Below are positions 5,068-44,708 of a stretch of 44,708 bases of DNA, piece by piece; the stretch's first letter is position 1, and every line of letters starts with the position of its first letter. The notes beneath the pieces are model-generated. The model was not told the DNA's origin. It saw only the letters and a list, made by a program, of their open reading frames with translations, and ran no database searches. The position numbers and the translations under genes were made by a program. The stretch lies in the IMG/VR virus record IMGVR_UViG_2541047944_000003, positions 1 to 44,708 of that record; one strand, given 5' to 3'. This stretch comes from a virus. Taxonomy: Duplodnaviria; Heunggongvirae; Uroviricota; Caudoviricetes.

Positions 5068-5293
5068 AGGATGCTCCTTCTGTTTGATTGCATAACGAAA
5101 ACGCCTCGAGTGAAGCGTTATTGGTATGCATATAAAAAGGCCATCACATTGGAGGGCAAAAAAGATTTCCAATAATCAGAACAAGTCGGCTCCTGTTTAG
5201 TTACGAGCGACATTGCTCCGTGTATTCACTCGTTGGAATGAATACACAGTGCAGTGTTTATTCTGTTATTTATGCCAAAAATAAAGGCCACTA

Positions 5294-5494
5294 TCAGGCA
5301 GCTTTGTTGTTCTGTTTACCAAGTTCTCTGGCAATCATTGCCGTCGTTCGTATTGCCCATTTATCGACATATTTCCCATCTTCCATTACAGGAAACATTT
5401 CTTCAGGCTTAACCATGCATTCCGATTGCAGCTTGCATCCATTGCATCGTTTGAATTGTCCACACCATTGATTTGTATCAATAGTCGTAGTCAT
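5294..5494 (-). CDS. hypothetical Cys-rich small protein (66 aa)
   Basis: ORF with CxxxxxxCxxC pattern; overlaps upstream mini-ORF stop. Confidence 0.4.
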   Translation of the reverse strand: MTTTIDTNQWCGQFKRCNGCKLQSECMVKPEEMFPVMEDGKYVDKWAIRTTAMIARELGKQNNKAA

Positions 5495-5707
5495 ACGGAT
5501 AGTCCTGGTATTGTTCCATCACATCTTGAGGATGCTCTTCGAACTCTTCAAATTCTTCTTCCATATATCACCTTAAATAGTGGATTGCGGTAGTAAAGAT
5601 TGTGCCTGTCTTTTAACCACATCAGGCTCGGTGGTTCTCGTGTACCCCTACAACGAGAAATCGGATAAACTCTATTCACCCCTACAGAGAGCAAAAGAGA
5701 AACGCCG

Positions 5708-6289
5708 ATGAACAACTCATGGTGGCAGGAACTAATGCATTTTTTCCTGCAAGGAATGACACTTAAACAGTTGATTCATATGCTAATCATCCTGATCATA
5801 TTGATTATTGTTATGCCGGTAAGCGTAAAAGAATGGATAAACCTGCATAATCCAGAAATCCTTCCTCATTACTGGATGTATTACATCCTGTTGTTTTGCG
5901 TTAGCTATGTGCTTAACGGCGTTGTTAATTCCGCTTATCACGCTGTGACTGAAAGAATTGAGGTATTCGCTGCTCAGAAGCGCAAATCTAAAGAAGAAAA
6001 ATATGTGCAAGATTTGTTTGATTCGTTAACTCTTGGAGAAAGAGCGTATTTGGCATTCGCTGTAGCCGCTAATAACCAGCTACAAACGGAAAAGGGCGCT
6101 CATGAATCAATTTCATTGCTCAAAAAAGGACTCCTCGTTCGAAGGCCTCCTGCTGTTGGATATCCTGATACCGACCGTTTCGTTATCCCTGAAAGCTATA
6201 GACATGAGTGCTACATTAGGTTTGCCGGGAAGGCAGACAGCCTTATGGATGAACTTATCGCTCAGGATAAGCATGGCAAAAACAAGTAA
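5708..6289 (+). CDS. sieB: superinfection exclusion protein B-like membrane protein
   Basis: 193-aa protein with two strongly hydrophobic helices; rightward gene embedded in the leftward early operon between N and cIII, as sieB is in lambda. Confidence 0.55.
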   Translation: MNNSWWQELMHFFLQGMTLKQLIHMLIILIILIIVMPVSVKEWINLHNPEILPHYWMYYILLFCVSYVLNGVVNSAYHAVTERIEVFAAQKRKSKEEKYVQDLFDSLTLGERAYLAFAVAANNQLQTEKGAHESISLLKKGLLVRRPPAVGYPDTDRFVIPESYRHECYIRFAGKADSLMDELIAQDKHGKNK

Positions 6290-6305
6290 TTAGCAAATGA
6301 ATTTA

Positions 6306-6578
6306 TCATCTCGCCGTCAGTTGTTTTGATTTCCGGTAGCCTGCCGCGTAAAGAGCTACGTTCGGAAGACAAGTTGAACCTTCATATTTTCTGGTCAACG
6401 TTGTCAGAGTTATCACTTCTGCTCTCATTGCTGGTTTGCGCTTGCATTGCAAGACCACTCGTGAAGGGGTTGGCCTGTGTAGCTTGTCGGAGCTGATCGC
6501 CTCCTGACTTTGCAGATTTGCGCGACGAGCTCTACGGCGAGAAGCTGCGGTGCCTTTAAATTCTGTTTTTCTGGACAT
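6306..6578 (-). CDS. N: N-like transcription antitermination protein
   Basis: Arginine-rich motif TAASRRRARRANLQ near the N-terminus; GGAGGA RBS before ATG at 6578; sits between nutL and the early-left genes. Confidence 0.6.
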   Translation of the reverse strand: MSRKTEFKGTAASRRRARRANLQSQEAISSDKLHRPTPSRVVLQCKRKPAMRAEVITLTTLTRKYEGSTCLPNVALYAAGYRKSKQLTAR

Positions 6579-6676
6579 GGATTCCTCCCGAATAAACTTT
6601 GGCGATGCAATCTCGAAGCTCCTCCTGAGACGGTTGCTTCGGCATTGCATCCCACAGCTTATGTGGTTGGGTGATC

Positions 6677-6722
6677 TGGCTTTTCAGCCACGTAGTCGAG
6701 AGTCGACGTTGTTTAAAGAGCC
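6677..6722 (-). promoter_or_regulatory. nutL candidate (boxA GCTCTTTAAACAAC, boxB hairpin GGC-TGAAAA-GCC)
   Basis: On the minus strand; boxA and the TGAAAA-loop hairpin recur with the same spacing at nutR. Confidence 0.55.
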
Positions 6723-6769
6723 TGCCAGTCTGCTCCATTTGGCTTCCAGCGTCCTGCTGACGGTTAAAT

Positions 6770-6788
6770 AGTACGATATGTACTTTAC
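6770..6788. promoter_or_regulatory. OL operator site (GTAAAGTACATATCGTACT on minus strand)
   Basis: 16 of 19 positions identical to a site in OR at 9084-9102; contains inverted AGTAC half-sites. Confidence 0.5.
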
Positions 6789-6983
6789 GGGATCAATACA
6801 ATTTGTTGTAATTTGGCGTGGTTTTTTATAACGCTTTGTATTTAATAGTGTTGTTTTTTAGCGTGGATGTATTGCCTCGGCGATGTAAGGAGAGATCAGA
6901 ATTGCGTGGTTTAGTGGGTTGCATCTATTTATTTTTCAATAAATATAATTGGTTATGTGTTTTTAGGTGGGCGAACGTGAGGC

Positions 6984-7009
6984 AAAGAAAACCCGGCGCT
7001 GAGGCCGGG
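6984..7009 (-). terminator. intrinsic terminator after the cI-operon cargo genes
   Basis: Hairpin CCCGGC-gctgag-GCCGGG followed on the minus strand by a T-run, immediately after the stop at 7015. Confidence 0.6.
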
Positions 7010-7014
7010 TTGTA

Positions 7015-7767
7015 TTATGCTGCAAGTCTCTTAACCCAAGTCTCTCTTTTGGAGAATGGTAGAACTTGGCTTGATTCATGGAAGAGTAAGGAGAGTTGTT
7101 GCATTTGATCACCAATTGCTTCGCTGTCTATAACAACAAATCTGTTGTTATACTCCTCACTTGAAGCTTTAAGATCAATTAGTTTCCCAAGCAATGAGTA
7201 AGCACTATTCCAGCTTCCTCCGTGTTTCACGCTTGATGTAAAAACGTATTTAGGTATGTCGGTTTTTATTGTTACAGGGACGGTAATTTGATGTCCACTC
7301 AAGCCATATACGTTTTCACGAAGAGAAAGTGCGTCTCTAAGCTCTGTGTGATATAGATAATCAATAACCATACTTTCAAACTTTTCAGCTTGAACTGGCT
7401 GATACCAGTCTAACGACAAAGTTGATGCGAGTATACCAGCTCTAATTATGTTCGATGTAATCGCACCGACATCCTTTTCTGTTGCCCAAGCAATGATTTC
7501 TCCTCGAGCATTGAGTTCTGCGCCTTCTTTAAGCAGTAATTGTCGTATCTCATCAAGTCGTTTTTTGGTAAGCGAGATCCCTCTTGCCTCCATATTCATT
7601 AAGGCATCGCATCTGTCACTAACTAAATACCTACCATTGACTTCACGGATAAAGGCACCGACATGCTCTCCATCATCACAGTAAGTGAATGGACTGATAA
7701 TTCTCAAGGTCTTGCCTATTGGATGGCATTCGAAACCTAGTTGTGAGATCACTGTTGAGCACATCAT
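7015..7767 (-). CDS. hypothetical protein (250 aa), immunity-region cargo
   Basis: ORF downstream of cI, 4-nt overlap with upstream ORF, AT-rich codon usage unlike backbone; no recognisable motif. Confidence 0.6.
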   Translation of the reverse strand: MMCSTVISQLGFECHPIGKTLRIISPFTYCDDGEHVGAFIREVNGRYLVSDRCDALMNMEARGISLTKKRLDEIRQLLLKEGAELNARGEIIAWATEKDVGAITSNIIRAGILASTLSLDWYQPVQAEKFESMVIDYLYHTELRDALSLRENVYGLSGHQITVPVTIKTDIPKYVFTSSVKHGGSWNSAYSLLGKLIDLKASSEEYNNRFVVIDSEAIGDQMQQLSLLFHESSQVLPFSKRETWVKRLAA

Positions 7768-8360: not shown

Positions 8361-9020
8361 TCACCCAAACGTCTCTTCAGGCCATTGGCTGGCGATAACT
8401 TTCCCCACAACGGAACAACTCTCATTGCATGGGATCATTGGGTATTGTGGGTTTAGTGGCTGTAGAAACACCTGACCGCTATCCCTGATCAGTTTCTTGA
8501 AGGTAAATTCATCACCACCAAGTCTGGCTATGCAGAAATCGCCGGGCTCAACAGCTTGCTCAGGGTCAACCAGAATTAACATCCCGTCAGGAAAGCTGGG
8601 TTTGGAACCTGTTGGTGCGGTCATTGAGTTACCTTCAACCTCAAGCCAGAATGCAGAGTCACTGGCTTTTTTGGTTGTGCTTACCAATCTCTCCGCATCG
8701 CCTTTGGTAAAGGTTCTGAGTTCTGGAGAGAACATCCCAGCCTGAACATGAGAAAAAACAGGGTACTCATATTGTTTTTTAACTGGGGCCGATGAGTATT
8801 CGCCAACAGGTGAAAATGTCCCGTCGTGGTTGAATGATATGTTATCAATACCAAGGTATTTAAACACCACACCAATATCACTAAGAGATGGATGACGAGA
8901 TCCGCGCAACCAGTGTCCAATCCCACCCTGCGTCATACCTAGCTCTTCGGCTAACTTCTCTTGAGTTATGCCGAGCTCTTTCATTCTGGATCTAGCCAGT
9001 TCATACCATTTCATTTTCAT
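8361..9020 (-). CDS. cI: CI-type prophage repressor (HTH DNA-binding domain plus S24 peptidase domain)
   Basis: C-terminal domain matches lambda CI as remembered ([19 protein letters not shown]...[12 protein letters not shown]); N-terminal HTH differs; TAAGGA RBS before ATG at 9020. Confidence 0.9.
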
Positions 9021-38525: not shown

Positions 38526-41500
38526 ATGGGTAAAGGCAGCAGTAAGGGGCATACCCCGCGCGAAGCGAAGGACAACCTGAAATCCACGCAGTTGCTGAGT
38601 GTGATCGATGTCATCAGCGAAGGGCCGGTTGAAGGTCCGGTGGATGGGTTAAAAAGCGTGCTGCTGAACAGTACGCCGGTGCTGGACAGTGAGGGGAATA
38701 CCAATATCTCCGGTGTCACGGTGGTGTTCCGGGCAGGTGAGCAGGAGCAGACACCGCCGGAGGGGTTTGAATCCTCCGGCTCCGAGACGGTGCTGGGTAC
38801 GGAAGTGAAATATGACACGCCGATCACCCGCACCATCACGTCGGCAAACATCGACCGTCTGCGTTTTACTTTCGGCGTGCAGGCACTGGTGGAAACCACC
38901 TCAAAAGGGGACCGGAATCCGTCGGAAGTCCGCCTGCTGGTTCAGATACAGCGTAACGGTGGCTGGGTGACGGAAAAAGACATCACCATTAAGGGCAAAA
39001 CCACCTCACAGTATCTGGCCTCGGTGGTGGTGGATAACCTGCCGCCGCGCCCGTTTAATATCCGGATGCGCAGAATGACGCCGGACAGCACCACAGACCA
39101 GCTGCAGAACAAAACGCTCTGGTCGTCATACACCGAAATTATCGATGTGAAACAGTGCTACCCGAACACGGCACTGGTCGGCGTGCAGGTGGATTCGGAG
39201 CAGTTCGGCAGCCAGCAGGTGAGCCGTAATTATCATCTGCGCGGGCGCATTCTGCAGGTGCCGTCGAACTATGATCCGGAAAAACGCACTTACAGCGGTA
39301 TCTGGGACGGAACGTTAAAACCGGCATACAGCAACAACATGGCCTGGTGTCTGTGGGATATGCTGACCCATCCGCGCTACGGCATGGGGAAACGTCTTGG
39401 TGCGGCGGATGTGGATAAATGGGCGCTGTATGTCATCGGCCAGTACTGTGACCAGTCTGTACCGAATGGTTTTGGTGGAACGGAGCCGCGCATCACCTGT
39501 AACGCTTACCTGACCACACAGCGTAAGGCGTGGGATGTTCTCAGTGATTTCTGCTCGGCGATGCGCTGTATGCCGGTATGGAACGGGCAGACGCTGACGT
39601 TCGTGCAGGACCGACCGTCGGATAAGGTGTGGACCTATAACCGCAGTAATGTGGTGATGCCGGATGATGACGCGCCGTTCCGCTACAGCTTCAGCGCCCT
39701 GAAGGACCGCCATAATGCCGTTGAGGTGAACTGGATTGACCCGAACAACGGCTGGGAGACGGCAACAGAGCTCGTGGAGGACACGCAGGCCATTCTCCGT
39801 TACGGTCGTAACGTCACGAAGATGGATGCCTTTGGCTGTACCAGCCGGGGGCAGGCACACCGCGCCGGGCTGTGGCTGATTAAAACAGAACTGCTGGAAA
39901 CGCAGACCGTGGATTTCAGCGTCGGCGCAGAAGGGCTTCGCCATGTACCGGGCGATGTTATTGAAATCTGTGATGATGACTATGCCGGTATCAGCACCGG
40001 TGGTCGTGTGCTGGCGGTGAACAGCCAGACCCGGACGCTGACGCTCGACCGTGAAATCACGCTGCCATCCTCCGGTACCACGCTGATAAGCCTGGTTGAC
40101 GGAAGTGGCAATCCGGTCAGCGTGGAGGTTCAGTCCGTCACCGACGGCGTGAAGGTAAAAGTGAGCCGTGTTCCTGACGGTGTTGCTGAATACAGCGTGT
40201 GGGGGCTGAAGCTGCCGACGCTGCGCCAGCGCCTGTTCCGCTGCGTGAGTATCCGTGAGAACGACGACGGCACGTATGCCATCACCGCCGTGCAGCATGT
40301 ACCGGAAAAAGAGGCCATCGTGGATAACGGGGCGCACTTTGACGGCGACCAGAGCGGCACGGTGAATGGTGTCACGCCGCCAGCGGTGCAGCACCTGACC
40401 GCCGAAGTCACCGCAGACAGCGGGGAATACCAGGTGCTGGCGCGCTGGGACACGCCGAAGGTGGTGAAGGGCGTGAGCTTCCTGCTCCGTCTGGCCGTGG
40501 CAGCGGACGACGGCAGTGAGCGGCTGGTCAGCACGGCCAGGACGACGGAAACCACATACCGCTTCAGGCAACTGGCGCTGGGGAACTACAGGCTGACAGT
40601 CCGGGCAGTAAATGCGTGGGGGCAGCAGGGCGATCCGGCGTCGGTATCGTTCCGGATTGCCGCACCGGCAGCGCCGTCGCGGATTGAGCTGACGCCGGGC
40701 TATTTTCAGATAACTGCCACGCCGCATCTTGCGGTTTATGATCCGACGGTACAGTTTGAGTTCTGGTTCTCGGAAACGCGGATTACCGATATCAGGCAGG
40801 TTGAAACCACAGCCCGCTATCTTGGCACGGCGCTGTACTGGATAGCCGCCAGTATCAATATCAAACCGGGCCGTGATTATTATTTTTACATCCGCAGTGT
40901 GAACACCGTTGGCAAATCGGCATTTGTGGAGGCTGTTGGCCAGCCGAGTGATGATGCATCCGGCTATCTGGATTTTTTCAAAGGAGAGATAGGGAAAACC
41001 CATCTGGCTCAGGAGTTGTGGACGCAGATTGATAACGGTCAGCTTGCGCCTGACCTGGCGGAAATCAAAACGTCCATCACGGATGTCAGTAATGAAATCA
41101 CGCAGACCGTCAATAAGAAACTGGAAGACCAGAGTGCAGCGATCCAGCAGATACAGAAGGTTCAGGTTGATACAAATAATAACCTGAACAGCATGTGGGC
41201 TGTGAAGCTGCAGCAGATGCAGGACGGACGCCTTTATATCGCGGGTATTGGTGCCGGTATTGAAAACACCCCTGACGGCATGCAGAGTCAGGTGCTGCTG
41301 GCGGCAGACAGGATTGCGATGATTAATCCTGCGAATGGCAACACAAAGCCGATGTTTGTTGGGCAGGGCGATCAGATATTCATGAACGAAGTGTTCCTGA
41401 AATATCTGACGGCTCCCACCATTACCAGCGGTGGCAATCCCCCAACGTTTTCACTGACACCTGATGGTCGATTTTCTGCGAAAAATGCGGATATCAGCGG

Positions 41501-42008
41501 TAACGTGAACGCGAACTCCGGGACGCTCAACAACGTCACGATTAATCAGAACTGTCGGATTCTGGGAAAACTGTCAGCTAACCAGATTGAAGGTGATATT
41601 GTCAAAACGGTGGGAAAAGCCTTTCCGAGAAATGGCAGTTATGCCAGCGGTACAATAACGGTCACTGTGTACGATGACCAGGCTTTTGACCGTCAGATAG
41701 TAGTCCCCCCCGTTCTGTTTCGTGGGGGTAAGCATGAAAACTTCAACAGCAACAACCAACAGTCATACTGGTATTCAACCTGTAAGCTGCAGGTACTGAA
41801 GAACGGACAGGAAATCTTTCAGCAACCCGCGACGGATGTCAGCAGGGTATTTTCATCAGTCATTGATATGCCTGCCGGACACGGCCATGTCACCCTGACT
41901 TTCAATGTTTCTTCATATGGTGCTAATAACTGGACGCCAACGACCAGTATCAGCGACCTTCTTGTTGTTGTGATGAAGAAATCTACAGCCGGTATCAGTA
42001 TCAGTTGA
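38526..42008 (+). CDS. J: central tail fiber / host specificity protein J with divergent C-terminal receptor-binding region
   Basis: N-terminal ~800 aa match lambda J as remembered; C-terminal ~350 aa differ and the protein is 1160 aa versus 1132 aa in lambda. Confidence 0.95.
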
Positions 42009-42027
42009 ATTTTATAACCCAGATACG

Positions 42028-42051
42028 GGCGCCAGAAATGGCGCCTTTTTT
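42028..42051 (+). terminator. intrinsic terminator downstream of J
   Basis: Palindromic stem GGCGCC-agaaat-GGCGCC followed by TTTTTT. Confidence 0.6.
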
Positions 42052-42066
42052 ATTTGTGGAGTGAAT

Positions 42067-44127
42067 ATGGCAGTACAGATTTCAGGCGTGCTGAAAGACG
42101 GTGCAGGAAAACCGATACAGAACTGCACCATTCAGCTCAAAGCAAAACGTAACAGCACCACGGTTGTGGTGAACACGGTGGCCTCAGAAAATCCGGATGA
42201 AGCCGGACGTTACAGCATGGATGTCGAGTATGGCCAGTACAGCGTTATCCTGTTGGTTGAAGGTTTTCCGCCTTCACATGCCGGGGCTATCACCGTGTAT
42301 GAGGATTCTAAGCCGGGGACATTGAATGATTTTCTGGGCGCTGCAACAGAAGATGATGTTCGTCCGGAGGCACTGTATCGTTTTGAAAAGATGGTGGAAG
42401 AGGTGGCACGCAACGCTGAAGCCGCCTCTCAGAGCGCAGCGGCAGCAAAGAAATCAGAAACAGCAGCGGCATCGTCCAGGAATGCGGCGAAAACATCAGA
42501 GACGAATGCAGGTAACAGCGCGAAAGCGGCAGCTTCTTCAAAAACAGCCGCACAAAACGCAGCAACAGCGGCAGAACGTTCAGAGACAAATGCCCGTGCG
42601 TCAGAAGAAGCCTCCGCAGACAGTGAAGAGGCTTCCCGCCGTAATGCAGAGTCAGCCGCTGAAAATGCCGGAGTCGCCACCACAAAAGCGCGGGAGGCCG
42701 CAGCAGACGCAACAAAGGCCGGGCAGAAAAAGGATGAGGCTCTGTCGGCAGCGACACGGGCTGAAAAGGCGGCAGACCGCGCAGAAGTCGCAGCGGAAGT
42801 GACTGCAGAGCCCTATGCGAATATAGTGCCGCCGCTGCCTGATGTGTGGATACCGTTTAACGATTCACTGGATATGATTGCGGGTTTTTCTCCGGGCTAT
42901 AAAAAAATAGCTATTGGTGACGATGTGGTTCAGGTCGCCAGTGATAAACAGGTTAATTTCAGTCGCGCATCAACGGCAACATATATCAACAAATCTGGCG
43001 AACTGAAAACGGCGGAAATTAATGAGCCGCGATTTGAGTGTGATGGCCTGCTTATTGAGGGACAAAGAACGAACTACATGCTCAATTCGGAAAGTCCAGC
43101 CAGCTGGGGGAAGTCATCAAACATGGATGTGCCCGAAACCGGGACGGATAGTTTTGGTTTTACTTATGGAAAGTTTGTCTGCAACGATTCTCTGGTTGGG
43201 CAAACTTCGGCTATTAATATGGCATCAATTGCTGCAACAAAGTCAGTTGATGTCTCAGGCGATAACAAGTACGTGACAACCTCATGCCGTTTTAAAACAG
43301 AACGACAGGTAAGGTTACGTATACGGTTTGATAAGTATGATGGTAGTGCAACAACTTTTCTTGGCGATGCGTACATTGATACGCAAACGCTTGAAATTAA
43401 TATGACAGGTGGTGCTGCCGGCAGAATTACGGCACGAGTCAGGAAGGATAAGACCACAGGCTGGATTTTTGCAGAGGCAACGATTCAGGCAATTGATGGT
43501 GAGTTAAAAATAGGCTCTCAGATACAGTATTCTCCTGAGCAGGGTGGGGCAACAGTATCTGGTGACTATATTTATCTTGCCACCCCACAAGTAGAGAATG
43601 GGCCGTGTGTATCATCATTTATTATTTCAGGAGGCAGCGCAACGACAAGAGCCAGTGATTTGGTTAGTATCCCCACCAGAAATAATCTTTATAAGTTACC
43701 ATTTACTTTTTTACTTGAGATTCATAAAAACTGGGATATTGCACCAAACGCCGCACCCCGCGTGTGGGATATAGCAGCAGCCAATACCGGGCAATCAGCA
43801 ATTGCAGCAATCAACAGAGGTAGTGGTAAGTTATATATGAGTCTGTCAAACCCTTCAGGCTCGTATGTTAATAGCGCAGCGACAGATGTATTTGCAGAGA
43901 AAACCACATTTGGATGTATTGCAAAAGCTGATGGTCACTTTCATGTGGTGACAAATGGTAAAGCGGTTAATGAAGTTTATTGTGAATATAATGGCGTGAC
44001 CGCTGATAAAAATATCCGATTTGGAGGGCAGACGAATACTGGAGAACGACATCTGTTTGGCCATATTCGCAATTTCCGCATATGGCATAAAGAATTAAAT
44101 GACAGGCAATTAAAAGAGGTCGTATGA
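42067..44127 (+). CDS. stf: side tail fiber protein with lambda Stf-like N-terminus and unrelated AT-richer C-terminal domain (686 aa)
   Basis: MAVQISGVLKDGAGKPIQNCTIQLKAKRNSTTVVVNTV... matches lambda Stf N-terminus as remembered; Ala/Ser-rich repeat then novel C-terminal region. Confidence 0.8.
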   Translation: MAVQISGVLKDGAGKPIQNCTIQLKAKRNSTTVVVNTVASENPDEAGRYSMDVEYGQYSVILLVEGFPPSHAGAITVYEDSKPGTLNDFLGAATEDDVRPEALYRFEKMVEEVARNAEAASQSAAAAKKSETAAASSRNAAKTSETNAGNSAKAAASSKTAAQNAATAAERSETNARASEEASADSEEASRRNAESAAENAGVATTKAREAAADATKAGQKKDEALSAATRAEKAADRAEVAAEVTAEPYANIVPPLPDVWIPFNDSLDMIAGFSPGYKKIAIGDDVVQVASDKQVNFSRASTATYINKSGELKTAEINEPRFECDGLLIEGQRTNYMLNSESPASWGKSSNMDVPETGTDSFGFTYGKFVCNDSLVGQTSAINMASIAATKSVDVSGDNKYVTTSCRFKTERQVRLRIRFDKYDGSATTFLGDAYIDTQTLEINMTGGAAGRITARVRKDKTTGWIFAEATIQAIDGELKIGSQIQYSPEQGGATVSGDYIYLATPQVENGPCVSSFIISGGSATTRASDLVSIPTRNNLYKLPFTFLLEIHKNWDIAPNAAPRVWDIAAANTGQSAIAAINRGSGKLYMSLSNPSGSYVNSAATDVFAEKTTFGCIAKADGHFHVVTNGKAVNEVYCEYNGVTADKNIRFGGQTNTGERHLFGHIRNFRIWHKELNDRQLKEVV

Positions 44128-44402
44128 AAGATTTAACTTTGAAGTTTCATGACAAACTGCAGTTTAAGGCCTTCCTGTCATCTCTTGGCTGGGCGGAAGA
44201 TGAAGACCTCCAGAATAAACTGTTAGTTGATGAAATTGGTTTCACCTACACAGAAACAGGGGTAACAGAAGAGGGAGAACCTGTCTGTATCCGGAATGAT
44301 GGTTATTTTGTCAACATTCGCATTCTTGATGACTTGTTTGATGTTTCTGTATTCTCTGATTATGTCGTGGAGCTGGAAACACCGCTTCGGGAATGGAGCT
44401 GA
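44124..44402 (+). CDS. hypothetical acidic protein (92 aa) downstream of stf, possibly fiber-associated
   Basis: ATGA overlap with stf stop; no similarity to lambda Tfa recognised. Confidence 0.45.
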   Translation: MKDLTLKFHDKLQFKAFLSSLGWAEDEDLQNKLLVDEIGFTYTETGVTEEGEPVCIRNDGYFVNIRILDDLFDVSVFSDYVVELETPLREWS

Positions 44403-44414
44403 AAGGAGGAAATA

Positions 44415-44708
44415 ATGGATATAAGCCCCTTACTTCATGCACTTTGTGCTGTGGCTGCGCAGATACTGGTTGGTCTTTTTACCGGAAACTGGGCTTACGG
44501 AGCGATAGCCGGTTGTACGTTCTTCATTGCGCGTGAACATACCCAGGCAGAATATCGCTGGATTGAAATGTTCGGGCATGGCAAGCGAATGAATATGCCG
44601 TGGTGGGGCGGTTTTGATCCGCGTGCTTGGGATGTGGCAAGCCTGATGGATTTTGCTGTGCCGGTGGTGGCGTGTCTGCTGGTCTGGCTGTTGGTTAATC
44701 GTGGGTGA
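44415..44708 (+). CDS. hypothetical membrane protein (97 aa)
   Basis: ORF with GGAGG RBS, two hydrophobic segments, stop at window end. Confidence 0.45.
   Translation: MDISPLLHALCAVAAQILVGLFTGNWAYGAIAGCTFFIAREHTQAEYRWIEMFGHGKRMNMPWWGGFDPRAWDVASLMDFAVPVVACLLVWLLVNRG

What the first reader, a model, noticed from the sequence alone, without database searches (positions are those of the whole stretch)
42028..44402. No lom gene, and a chimeric side tail fiber with an AT-richer foreign C-terminal domain followed by an unknown 92-aa gene
In lambda, J is followed by lom, then stf and tfa. Here a strong terminator follows J and stf begins only about 60 bp later, so lom is absent. The Stf N-terminus matches lambda, followed by an Ala/Ser-rich repeat and then about 400 residues of different, AT-richer sequence. 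The overlapping downstream ORF (44124-44402) does not resemble Tfa and may be a fiber-specific chaperone or adhesin partner.
Basis: partly seen in the sequence, partly recalled or inferred. Interest (0 to 1): 0.45.

Follow-up and report, generated by a model that had tools for sequence, protein, structure and literature searches.

The report
Mosaic side tail fibre with partner gene
This prophage has a lambda-type side tail fibre whose outer half has been replaced by a sugar-binding-type module that always travels with a small uncharacterised partner gene; the arrangement is common in E. coli phages (it is the phage 21 allele), so it is ordinary, although nobody has shown what the partner does.

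Summary
J ends at 42008 and a strong terminator follows at 42027-42056. stf starts at ATG 42067 (686 aa), 58 nt after J, so lom is absent, and Lom has no match anywhere in the window. The first ~253 Stf residues match lambda: the collar domain plus an Ala-rich shaft. Residues 254-686 are unrelated to lambda Stf and have low GC (0.41-0.45). A 92-aa gene overlaps the stf stop codon (ATGA) and is unrelated to Tfa.

The region is 99.4% identical to phage 21, mEp460 and ev017, and about a third of complete E. coli genomes carry related DNA. The foreign part is a GTA head-spike-fibre domain (NCBIfam NF048003) followed by a ConA/LamG-like lectin tip, so it most likely binds a surface glycan.

The 92-aa protein (PHROG 1361, function unknown) directly follows a fibre gene with this tip in every locus I checked. 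These include lambdoid, P2-like, phage-plasmid, T1-, T5- and rV5-like phages, Nonagvirus, and Leclercia, Silvania and Atlantibacter prophages. It is acidic, under purifying selection, confidently folded, and has no solved structural relative.

It is most likely a dedicated assembly factor that takes the place of Tfa. That role is inferred, not shown. Interest is moderate to low.

The parts
42027..42056 (+). Intrinsic terminator between J and stf: an 8-bp G+C-rich stem, a GAAA loop and a T-run.
   Evidence: Found by the pattern scan. The fold is -22 kcal/mol, z = -4.0. The same feature is annotated in phage 21.
42067..44127 (+). stf, a mosaic side tail fibre of 686 aa. The true start is ATG 42067, with a GGAG RBS at 42058-42061.
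   Evidence: phage 21 CDS CPT_21_22. It matches PHROG 1419 along its C-terminal part.
42067..42411 (+). Stf residues 1-115: the lambda-type N-terminal collar/anchor domain plus linker. This part attaches the fibre to the tail tip.
   Evidence: PF08400 at E = 1e-68. PDB 9e7m residues 1-94 at E = 1e-49. 86% identical to lambda. The role of StfN comes from the Ur-lambda cryo-EM study (PMC12617516).
42412..42825 (+). Stf residues 116-253: the Ala-rich (36% Ala) low-complexity shaft, homologous to part of the lambda proximal coiled coil but about half as long.
   Evidence: Composition. Lambda orf-401 aligns up to window position 42783. No DNA tandem repeat is present.
42826..43701 (+). Stf residues 254-545 ('D1'): the imported module containing the GTA head-spike-fibre domain (NF048003, residues 329-529).
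   Evidence: NCBIfam score 55.7 bits against a cutoff of 36. Rcc01080 at E = 1.4e-9. DNA homology to the P2-like fibre starts at 42826. GC is 0.447.
43702..44124 (+). Stf residues 546-686 ('D2'): the ConA/LamG-like lectin tip. This is the most variable segment of the family and the likely specificity determinant.
   Evidence: Laminin_G_3 scores 27.1 bits, just under the gathering threshold of 27.6. 10 of 12 diverse homologues hit it, best E = 4.5e-8. Mean pairwise identity is 0.54, lower than D1 (0.63) and orf92 (0.65). A 'galectin-like domain' was predicted for the homologous IrisVonRoten Gp22 (PMC11990801).
44124..44402 (+). orf92: a 92-aa acidic (pI 4.2) partner protein, translationally coupled to stf through an ATGA overlap. 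PHROG 1361, function unknown.
   Evidence: AF2 pLDDT is 90.9. dN/dS is 0.22-0.34. Synteny is strict.
44415..44708 (+). orf97: a small membrane protein with an AAGGAGG RBS. It accompanies the cassette in lambdoid and P2-like prophages only, and its stop codon is the last base of the window.
   Evidence: PHROG 1443; phage 21 annotation: 'putative membrane protein'. It has no Pfam, NCBIfam or PADLOC hit.

Best explanation
The locus is an ordinary mosaic receptor-binding cassette of a lambdoid prophage.

The fibre keeps the lambda-type N-terminal collar domain, which anchors trimeric side fibres to the tail tip, and a shortened Ala-rich shaft. From residue ~254 onward, the lambda gp37-like tip and its Tfa chaperone have been replaced by a horizontally mobile unit. 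That unit consists of a GTA head-spike-fibre domain, a ConA/LamG-like lectin tip, and a translationally coupled 92-aa acidic protein.

The lectin-type tip most likely binds a surface polysaccharide (O-antigen or capsule) for the first, reversible adsorption step. J then engages the terminal outer-membrane receptor.

The 92-aa protein is most likely a cytoplasmic assembly or folding factor made in step with the fibre. It would act on conserved features of this tip fold and so take the place of Tfa.

Shown here: the domain homologies, the mosaic junction, the mobility of the cassette, the strict fibre-orf92 linkage, purifying selection on orf92, and the lack of any relation to Tfa.
Inferred: glycan binding, the trimeric state of the tip, and the chaperone role.
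For: Identity and context. The region is 99.4% identical to phage 21, ev017 and mEp460, where the genes are annotated as side tail fiber, hypothetical protein and membrane protein.

Function of relatives. The RcGTA head-spike fibre binds capsular polysaccharide (PMC7296036, PMC10218006). The homologous IrisVonRoten Gp22 was predicted to carry a protruding galectin-like domain, and that phage crosses the O16 O-antigen barrier (PMC11990801, PMC8594841).

Mobility. The same D1-D2-orf92-orf97 block, 88% identical in DNA across window 42826-44697, sits on a P2-type H fibre with a Caudo_TAP remnant left behind it. D1-D2 plus orf92 also occur on a PF03406-type fibre of a phage-plasmid.

Linkage. All 80 IMG/VR loci kept have orf92 starting at or up to 3 nt after the end of a D1-D2 fibre coding sequence. 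Homologues only 28-32% identical in Leclercia, Silvania and Atlantibacter prophages again follow NF048003 fibres. T1-like, T5-like, Nonagvirus and rV5-like phages show the same pairing.

orf92 properties. It has an ATGA overlap with stf and its own RBS, pI 4.2, dN/dS of 0.22-0.34 and AF2 pLDDT of 90.9. It shares the low GC of D1-D2 (0.42), unlike orf97 at 0.53.

Not allele-matched. Within E. coli phages, orf92 identity barely tracks D1 or D2 identity (Spearman 0.21 and 0.23). This fits a factor that reads conserved fold features rather than the receptor-binding surface.
Against: There is no experiment and no complex prediction for orf92.

In most non-lambdoid contexts orf92 sits between the proximal fibre and a second fibre gene. 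Several of those second fibres share an N-terminal 'T.IP.DIT.LK' motif. Two BASEL records label orf92 homologues 'tail fiber protein'. A structural or adaptor role is therefore not excluded.

The AF2 model of the Stf C-terminus is poor (pLDDT 52.9). The matched part of Rcc01080 is not resolved in the PDB entry. The fold and oligomeric state of D1-D2 therefore rest on sequence profiles.

The receptor is unknown, and ConA-like folds also include glycanases.
Confidence: 0.55

Rival explanations
1. orf92 is a structural virion component: a small adaptor or cap bound to the fibre tip. In branched fibres it would help dock a second, distal fibre onto the proximal D1-D2 fibre.
For: orf92 lies between the D1-D2 fibre and a second fibre gene in IrisVonRoten, SelmaRatti, BRET, KarlJaspers, the phage-plasmid L006 and the Leclercia, Silvania and Atlantibacter prophages. 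Five of those second fibres share the N-terminal motif T.IP.DIT.LK. BASEL records name two orf92 homologues 'tail fiber protein'. Humolli et al. model the distal T-shaped fibre as attached to the proximal Gp22.
Against: The window has no second fibre and no docking motif in any of its six frames. In phage 21 the next genes are orf97 and then sitABCD on the opposite strand. Even so, orf92 is kept under purifying selection among lambdoid and P2-like copies that lack a second fibre (dN/dS 0.22-0.34). The published multimer model joins Gp24 to Gp22 without mentioning the 92-aa protein.
Confidence: 0.25
2. orf92 is the actual distal adhesin, like T2-type gp38: it sits on the fibre tip and determines receptor specificity.
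For: Its position directly after the fibre gene is the same as that of gp38-type adhesins (established knowledge of T-even phages).
Against: orf92 is less variable than the D2 tip (mean pairwise identity 0.65 against 0.54). Nearly identical orf92 alleles (99%) accompany tips only 39-47% identical, and a 51%-identical orf92 accompanies an 80%-identical D2. The alignment shows no hypervariable loops. It is a small acidic protein with no lectin-like or Gly-rich receptor-binding features.
Confidence: 0.07
3. orf92 has nothing to do with the fibre. It is an accessory gene (for example an immunity or exclusion factor) that hitch-hikes next to a recombination hotspot.
For: It has no recognisable domain. 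Tail-fibre ends are known insertion sites for accessory genes in lambdoid phages (general knowledge). The neighbouring orf97 does look like such a gene.
Against: orf92 is conserved in the same position in strictly virulent T1-, T5- and rV5-like phages and Nonagvirus. It is translationally coupled to the fibre gene and shares its base composition. It has no PADLOC hit. The linkage persists down to ~30% identity.
Confidence: 0.08

Closest known systems
Phage 21 / mEp460 / ev017 side tail fibre locus (OL657228 CPT_21_22 to CPT_21_24)
   Same: The same allele: 99.4% DNA identity over 42000-44708, with the same J-terminator-stf-orf92-orf97 order and no lom.
   Different: Nothing of substance. The phage 21 record leaves the 92-aa gene as 'hypothetical protein' even after HHpred-assisted annotation.
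Lambda (Ur-lambda) Stf + Tfa
   Same: The N-terminal collar domain and Ala-rich coiled-coil shaft are shared. The gene position after J is the same. The expected role as an accessory fibre that speeds reversible adsorption is the same.
   Different: Lambda has lom between J and stf. Its tip is gp37-like with His-rich repeats, binds OmpC, and needs Tfa (Caudo_TAP). Here the tip is a GTA-spike-fibre domain plus a LamG-like lectin, the shaft is about half as long, and the downstream gene is unrelated to Tfa.
RcGTA head spike fibre GhsB (Rcc01080; NCBIfam NF048003)
   Same: Homologous domain: E = 1.4e-9 over Stf residues 297-543, and NF048003 above its cutoff. The RcGTA protein binds capsular polysaccharide.
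   Different: The RcGTA protein attaches as a single subunit to a capsid pentamer through an N-terminal Leu-Gly repeat. It has no LamG tip, and the related RcapMu58 has no orf92-like gene after it. Here the domain sits on a tail fibre.
IrisVonRoten (Bas32) lateral tail fibre Gp22-Gp23-Gp24, and related T5-like, T1-like and Nonagvirus fibres
   Same: The Gp22 C-terminus is homologous to D1 (55%) and D2 (45%), and Gp23 is an orf92 homologue (50%) in the same position. A galectin-like tip was predicted for Gp22.
   Different: Those fibres have a T5-type anchor and carry a second, distal fibre with its own intramolecular chaperone. The prophage here has an unbranched fibre and a membrane-protein gene instead.
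Other fibre-maturation solutions: T4 gp57A/gp38, and the T5/K1F C-terminal intramolecular chaperone (Peptidase_S74)
   Same: A dedicated folding aid is encoded with or next to the fibre tip.
   Different: There is no sequence or fold similarity. This Stf has no S74 domain, and orf92 has no PDB relative.

Membership tests
Lambda-type side tail fibre (Stf) | N-terminal collar/anchor domain homologous to lambda StfN (PF08400) | tested here: met
   PF08400 at E = 1e-68. PDB 9e7m at E = 1e-49 over residues 1-94.
Lambda-type side tail fibre (Stf) | Gene located just downstream of the central fibre gene J in the late operon | tested here: met
   J ends at 42008 and stf starts at 42067.
Lambda-type side tail fibre (Stf) | gp37-like C-terminal receptor-binding tip, followed by a Tfa (Caudo_TAP, PF02413) chaperone gene | tested here: not met
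   There is no similarity to lambda orf-314 or Tfa. No PF02413 hit. hhalign probability is 0.1%.
Phage head spike fibre domain family (NCBIfam NF048003, RcGTA GhsB) | Score above the curated cutoff of the domain model | tested here: met
   55.7 bits against a cutoff of 36, at residues 329-529. RefSeq names the E. coli copies accordingly.
Phage head spike fibre domain family (NCBIfam NF048003, RcGTA GhsB) | Binding of a surface or capsular polysaccharide | not testable with these tools
   Known only for RcGTA. Inferred here.
Phage head spike fibre domain family (NCBIfam NF048003, RcGTA GhsB) | Attachment to capsid pentamers through an N-terminal Ile/Leu-Gly repeat | tested here: not met
   The N-terminus here is the lambda Stf tail anchor. 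Only the domain is shared, not the whole-protein architecture.
ConA-like lectin / LamG (Pfam PF13385 Laminin_G_3), for the tip D2 | Pfam match at the gathering threshold | tested here: inconclusive
   27.1 bits against a threshold of 27.6 for the 200-aa fragment, and 24.5 bits for the full protein. 10 of 12 homologous tips match at E < 0.05, best 4.5e-8.
ConA-like lectin / LamG (Pfam PF13385 Laminin_G_3), for the tip D2 | Jelly-roll beta-sandwich fold | tested here: inconclusive
Tail fibre assembly chaperones (Tfa / Caudo_TAP), for orf92 | Sequence or profile similarity to PF02413 | tested here: not met
Tail fibre assembly chaperones (Tfa / Caudo_TAP), for orf92 | Encoded immediately after the fibre gene whose tip it serves | tested here: met
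   ATGA overlap with stf. Strict synteny holds in all contexts examined.
Tail fibre assembly chaperones (Tfa / Caudo_TAP), for orf92 | Required for folding or trimerisation of the fibre tip | not testable with these tools
PHROG 1361 (orf92 family) | Full-length match to the family profile | tested here: met
   E = 3e-42 over positions 1-91 of 92. The family is annotated 'unknown function'.

The most novel reading that the evidence does not exclude
The orf92 / PHROG 1361 proteins are a so far undescribed class of tail-fibre maturation factor, either a chaperone or a tip-bound adaptor. They would be specific to fibres ending in a GTA-spike-fibre domain plus a LamG-like lectin tip. They are unrelated in sequence and fold to Tfa, gp38, gp57A and intramolecular S74 chaperones, and are conserved from temperate lambdoid and P2-like phages to virulent T1-, T5- and rV5-like phages and Nonagvirus. 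If so, they would have to be co-transferred whenever such tips are used to retarget engineered phages.
Probability: 0.45. Interest if true: 0.5.

Novelty: new variant of a known kind. Interest (0 to 1): 0.35.

Why it matters
The locus itself is not a discovery. It is the phage 21 allele and is widespread in E. coli.

What has some value is the generalisation that came out of checking it. A lectin-type fibre tip is very common: 228 phage records carry it, and about a third of complete E. coli genomes have related DNA. In every case examined it comes with the same small protein of unknown function.

Side tail fibres and lateral fibres decide whether a phage can cross the O-antigen or capsule barrier, and chimeric lambda Stf proteins are already used to retarget DNA-delivery particles. 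If the 92-aa protein is needed to make these tips, it is a practical requirement for such engineering. It would also be a missing entry in annotation resources, since Pfam and NCBIfam have no model for it and PHROGs lists it as 'unknown'.

Tried and rejected
- A third homologue search, meant to deepen that alignment, returned only ~100%-identical sequences.
- The afdb50 fold library was not available.
- Long repeat proteins among the profile-search hits (P0184, P0192) are spurious low-complexity or repeat matches.
- The search for related loci with the very diverse alignment A4 failed because it had no conserved stretch. A narrower alignment worked.
- P0152 could not be located on a contig.
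- Several literature leads proved irrelevant. The DT57C LtfA/LtfB fibres and the Cronobacter CRES7/9 fibre are of the intramolecular-chaperone type, not this type. The Eligo lambda-P2 STF work does not use this tip. The lambdoid mosaicism paper does not discuss fibres. A search for rV5 virion proteomics covering the orf92 homologue found nothing usable.
- PADLOC gave no defence-system match for orf92 or orf97.
Full report
**What is in the sequence**

The central tail fibre gene J occupies 38526-42008. It carries the full set of Pfam J domains through the C-terminal receptor-binding domain.

After a 58-nt spacer, stf starts at ATG 42067 with a GGAG ribosome-binding site at 42058-42061. The mechanical ORF list had extended it to GTG 42061; the curated phage 21 record uses the ATG.

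The spacer holds a hairpin, GGGCGCCA-GAAA-TGGCGCCT, followed by a T-run at 42027-42056. As RNA the spacer folds at -22 kcal/mol, z = -4.0 against shuffles.

There is no room for lom, and lambda Lom has no tblastn match anywhere in the window (best E = 1.7).

stf encodes 686 residues and ends at 44127. A 92-codon ORF starts at 44124 in an ATGA overlap, preceded by GAGG. A 97-codon ORF with an AAGGAGG site follows at 44415 and ends on the last base of the window.

**Anatomy of the fibre**

- Residues 1-94 match the solved collar domain of lambda Stf (PDB 9e7m, E = 1e-49). Pfam PF08400 covers about residues 1-131 (E = 1e-68).
- Lambda orf-401 aligns at 60% identity up to window position 42783.
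- Residues 116-253 are 36% Ala and 12% Ser. TRF finds no DNA tandem repeat. This is the lambda-type low-complexity shaft, not a repeat array, and it is about half the length of the lambda proximal coiled coil described in the Ur-lambda structure paper (PMC12617516).
- From residue 254 on there is no similarity to the lambda Stf C-terminus, and the base composition drops. GC is 0.447 for residues 254-545 and 0.413 for 546-686, against 0.556 for J. GC3 is 0.39 and 0.32 against 0.66.

**What the foreign part is**

I call residues 254-545 D1 and residues 546-686 D2.

NCBIfam NF048003 ('phage head spike fiber domain') matches residues 329-529 above its curated cutoff (55.7 against 36 bits). The head spike fibre Rcc01080 of the Rhodobacter gene transfer agent matches residues 297-543 at E = 1.4e-9.

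That protein binds the capsular polysaccharide of its host (PMC7296036, PMC10218006). One caveat applies: only residues 2-10 of Rcc01080 are resolved in the PDB entries, so no experimental structure exists for the matched domain.

The last ~140 residues match Pfam Laminin_G_3 (ConA-like lectin/glucanase) just below the gathering score. 10 of 12 diverse homologous tips match it, best E = 4.5e-8.

Independently, Humolli et al. 2025 predicted a protruding 'galectin-like domain' at the C-terminus of IrisVonRoten Gp22 (PMC11990801). That C-terminus is 55% (D1) and 45% (D2) identical to this Stf.

**It is a known, common allele**

Positions 42000-44708 are 99.4% identical to phage 21, ev017, mEp460 and PhiR63_2. 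In the curated phage 21 record the three genes are 'side tail fiber', 'hypothetical protein' and 'putative membrane protein', with no lom. The accompanying paper says nothing further about them.

Of 5426 complete E. coli genomes, 1714 have a megablast match to D1-D2-orf92 and 453 carry it nearly full length. RefSeq calls the pair 'phage head spike fiber domain-containing protein | hypothetical protein'.

**The cassette is mobile**

- A P2-like prophage carries an H-type fibre (PF12571 N-terminus). From the position equivalent to window 42826 through 44697 its DNA is 88% identical to the window. The block includes the 92-aa and 97-aa genes at the same spacing, and a 74-aa Caudo_TAP remnant lies just behind it. 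This fixes the mosaic junction at Stf residue ~254 and shows that the imported block displaced the resident tip and its Tfa-type chaperone.
- A phage-plasmid-like element has the same tip on a PF03406-type fibre, followed by a 92-aa homologue but no orf97.

**The 92-aa gene always accompanies this tip**

A word-indexed search found homologues only in Escherichia and Shigella. An exhaustive profile search found 80 cluster representatives of 85-110 aa (a few long repeat proteins among them are spurious; see 'tried and rejected') with conserved motifs: M.DL.LKF, D.IG, GY.VN.R and P.R.W.

In IMG/VR, 244 loci encode a relative. In all 80 kept, the gene starts at or up to 3 nt after the end of the coding sequence of a fibre gene with D1-D2 homology.

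Homologues only 28-32% identical, in Leclercia, Silvania and Atlantibacter prophages, again abut fibres with an NF048003 domain (E = 1e-19 to 6e-47) and the same C-terminal RN.RIWH..LT..Q motif.

In the phage collection, 147 records have an orf92 match by tblastn and 228 have a D1-D2 match. The carriers include temperate lambdoids, Drexlerviridae, T5-like phages, Dhillonvirus, Nonagvirus and rV5-like myoviruses.

I sampled three D1-D2-bearing phages that did not appear in the listed part of the orf92 search output: EmilHeitz, SelmaRatti and BRET. Each has an 88-110-aa gene directly after the fibre that matches my orf92 HMM at E = 3e-14 to 2e-23. The EmilHeitz protein hits the lambdoid orf92 reciprocally.

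RcapMu58 has the D1-type domain only, with no LamG tip, and no such gene follows it.

**Properties of orf92**

- It is acidic (pI 4.17).
- It is under purifying selection (dN/dS 0.22-0.34).
- It folds confidently as a small alpha/beta protein (pLDDT 90.9).
- It matches no Pfam, NCBIfam or PADLOC model. It belongs to PHROG 1361, 'unknown function'.
- It shows no profile similarity to lambda Tfa (hhalign probability 0.1%).
- It shares the low GC of D1-D2 (0.42), whereas orf97 is at 0.53.

**Chaperone, adaptor or adhesin?**

Over deep divergence, orf92, D1 and D2 diverge together (Spearman ~0.8), as expected for a cassette. Among the E. coli phages the correlation collapses to about 0.2.

- A 99%-identical orf92 accompanies tips that are only 47% (D1) and 39% (D2) identical.
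- A 51%-identical orf92 accompanies an 80%-identical D2.
- orf92 is also less variable than D2 (mean pairwise identity 0.65 against 0.54).

It therefore cannot be the specificity determinant. It must recognise conserved features of the fold. That fits a general assembly factor and argues against a gp38-like adhesin.

The main live rival is a structural adaptor. In most non-lambdoid contexts orf92 lies between the D1-D2 fibre and a second fibre gene. Five of these second fibres share an N-terminal T.IP.DIT.LK motif.

Against an adaptor-only role: the window has no second fibre and no such motif in any frame, yet orf92 is maintained under purifying selection in lambdoid and P2-like copies.

**Mechanism proposed**

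Shown:
- A lambda-type anchor and shaft carry an imported tip made of a GTA-spike-fibre domain plus a LamG-like domain.
- The tip moves between tail types together with orf92.

Inferred:
- The tip binds a surface glycan for reversible primary adsorption before J engages its outer-membrane receptor. This rests on analogy with the RcGTA fibre and with O-antigen-targeting lateral fibres of siphoviruses.
- orf92 is made in step with Stf through translational coupling and helps the tip fold or assemble, replacing Tfa.
- The terminator after J would be read through by Q-modified late transcription. It may insulate the distal genes in the prophage state. This rests on established knowledge of lambda late transcription and was not tested here.

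**Verdict**

The locus is an ordinary, already sequenced and widespread mosaic fibre cassette.

The one point of modest novelty is that its small partner protein belongs to an uncharacterised family strictly linked to this tip type across many phage lineages. I found no paper that describes its function.

Noticed in passing
window 44415-44708: orf97 is a 97-aa protein with two or three hydrophobic segments and a strong AAGGAGG RBS, and it ends exactly at the window end. It belongs to PHROG 1443 (unknown function) and has no Pfam, NCBIfam or PADLOC hit. It follows orf92 in nearly all lambdoid and P2-like copies but not in virulent phages. Its GC (0.53) differs from that of orf92 (0.42). It may be a membrane accessory gene expressed in lysogens (superinfection exclusion?), but this is untested.
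   Followed up: partly
L002 (Lambda_4C10, LR595861) 5078-7494: Three 'mobile element protein' ORFs (by their layout an IS66-family element; the family assignment was not tested) are inserted in the 3' end of this same stf allele, truncating Stf near residue 643. orf92 and orf97 still lie downstream. Three other phages (4A7, 1W, 3W) lose homology to the window at the same position, so they probably carry the same insertion, but I did not inspect them.
   Followed up: no
L004 (P2-like prophage, GCA_031791655) 8612-8836: A 74-aa Caudo_TAP remnant lies just behind the imported D1-D2/orf92/orf97 block. It is a scar of the replaced P2 G-type chaperone gene.
   Followed up: partly
window ~40800-42008: GC within J falls from about 0.60 to about 0.48 over its last ~1.2 kb. 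This suggests the receptor-binding C-terminus of J is itself a mosaic import.
   Followed up: no
L094 4270-4947; L095 5289-7013; L097 4087-5835; L098 4088-5827; L006 8163-9203: The genes after orf92 in T1-like, T5-like, Nonagvirus and phage-plasmid contexts share an N-terminal motif (M.T.T.IP.DIT.LK), although their remaining sequences differ. This is probably a docking peptide for branched fibres. The KarlJaspers gene annotated 'putative lateral tail fiber chaperone' carries this motif, so it may be a short distal fibre.
   Followed up: partly
protein P0143 (public protein set): P0143 contains the peptide EMCIRDR followed by a duplicated stretch of the fibre. From memory this peptide is a translated Nextera adapter (AGATGTGTATAAGAGACAG), which I did not check with a tool. 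If so, the entry is an assembly chimera.
   Followed up: no
phage records MG065692, MG065666, OR848352: Records labelled Campylobacter or Listeria phages carry fibres and orf92-family genes that closely match those of E. coli phages: tip 72% and orf92 46% identical to the window in C13, orf92 homologue 99% identical to EmilHeitz in A12a, and tip 49% and orf92 42% identical to the window in LM 4-14-1. They look like mislabelled or contaminant records.
   Followed up: no
window 42552-42565 (- strand): The phage 21 annotation marks a CII-binding-site-like motif (TTGYN6TTGY) inside stf at the equivalent position. It is probably only a pattern match.
   Followed up: no
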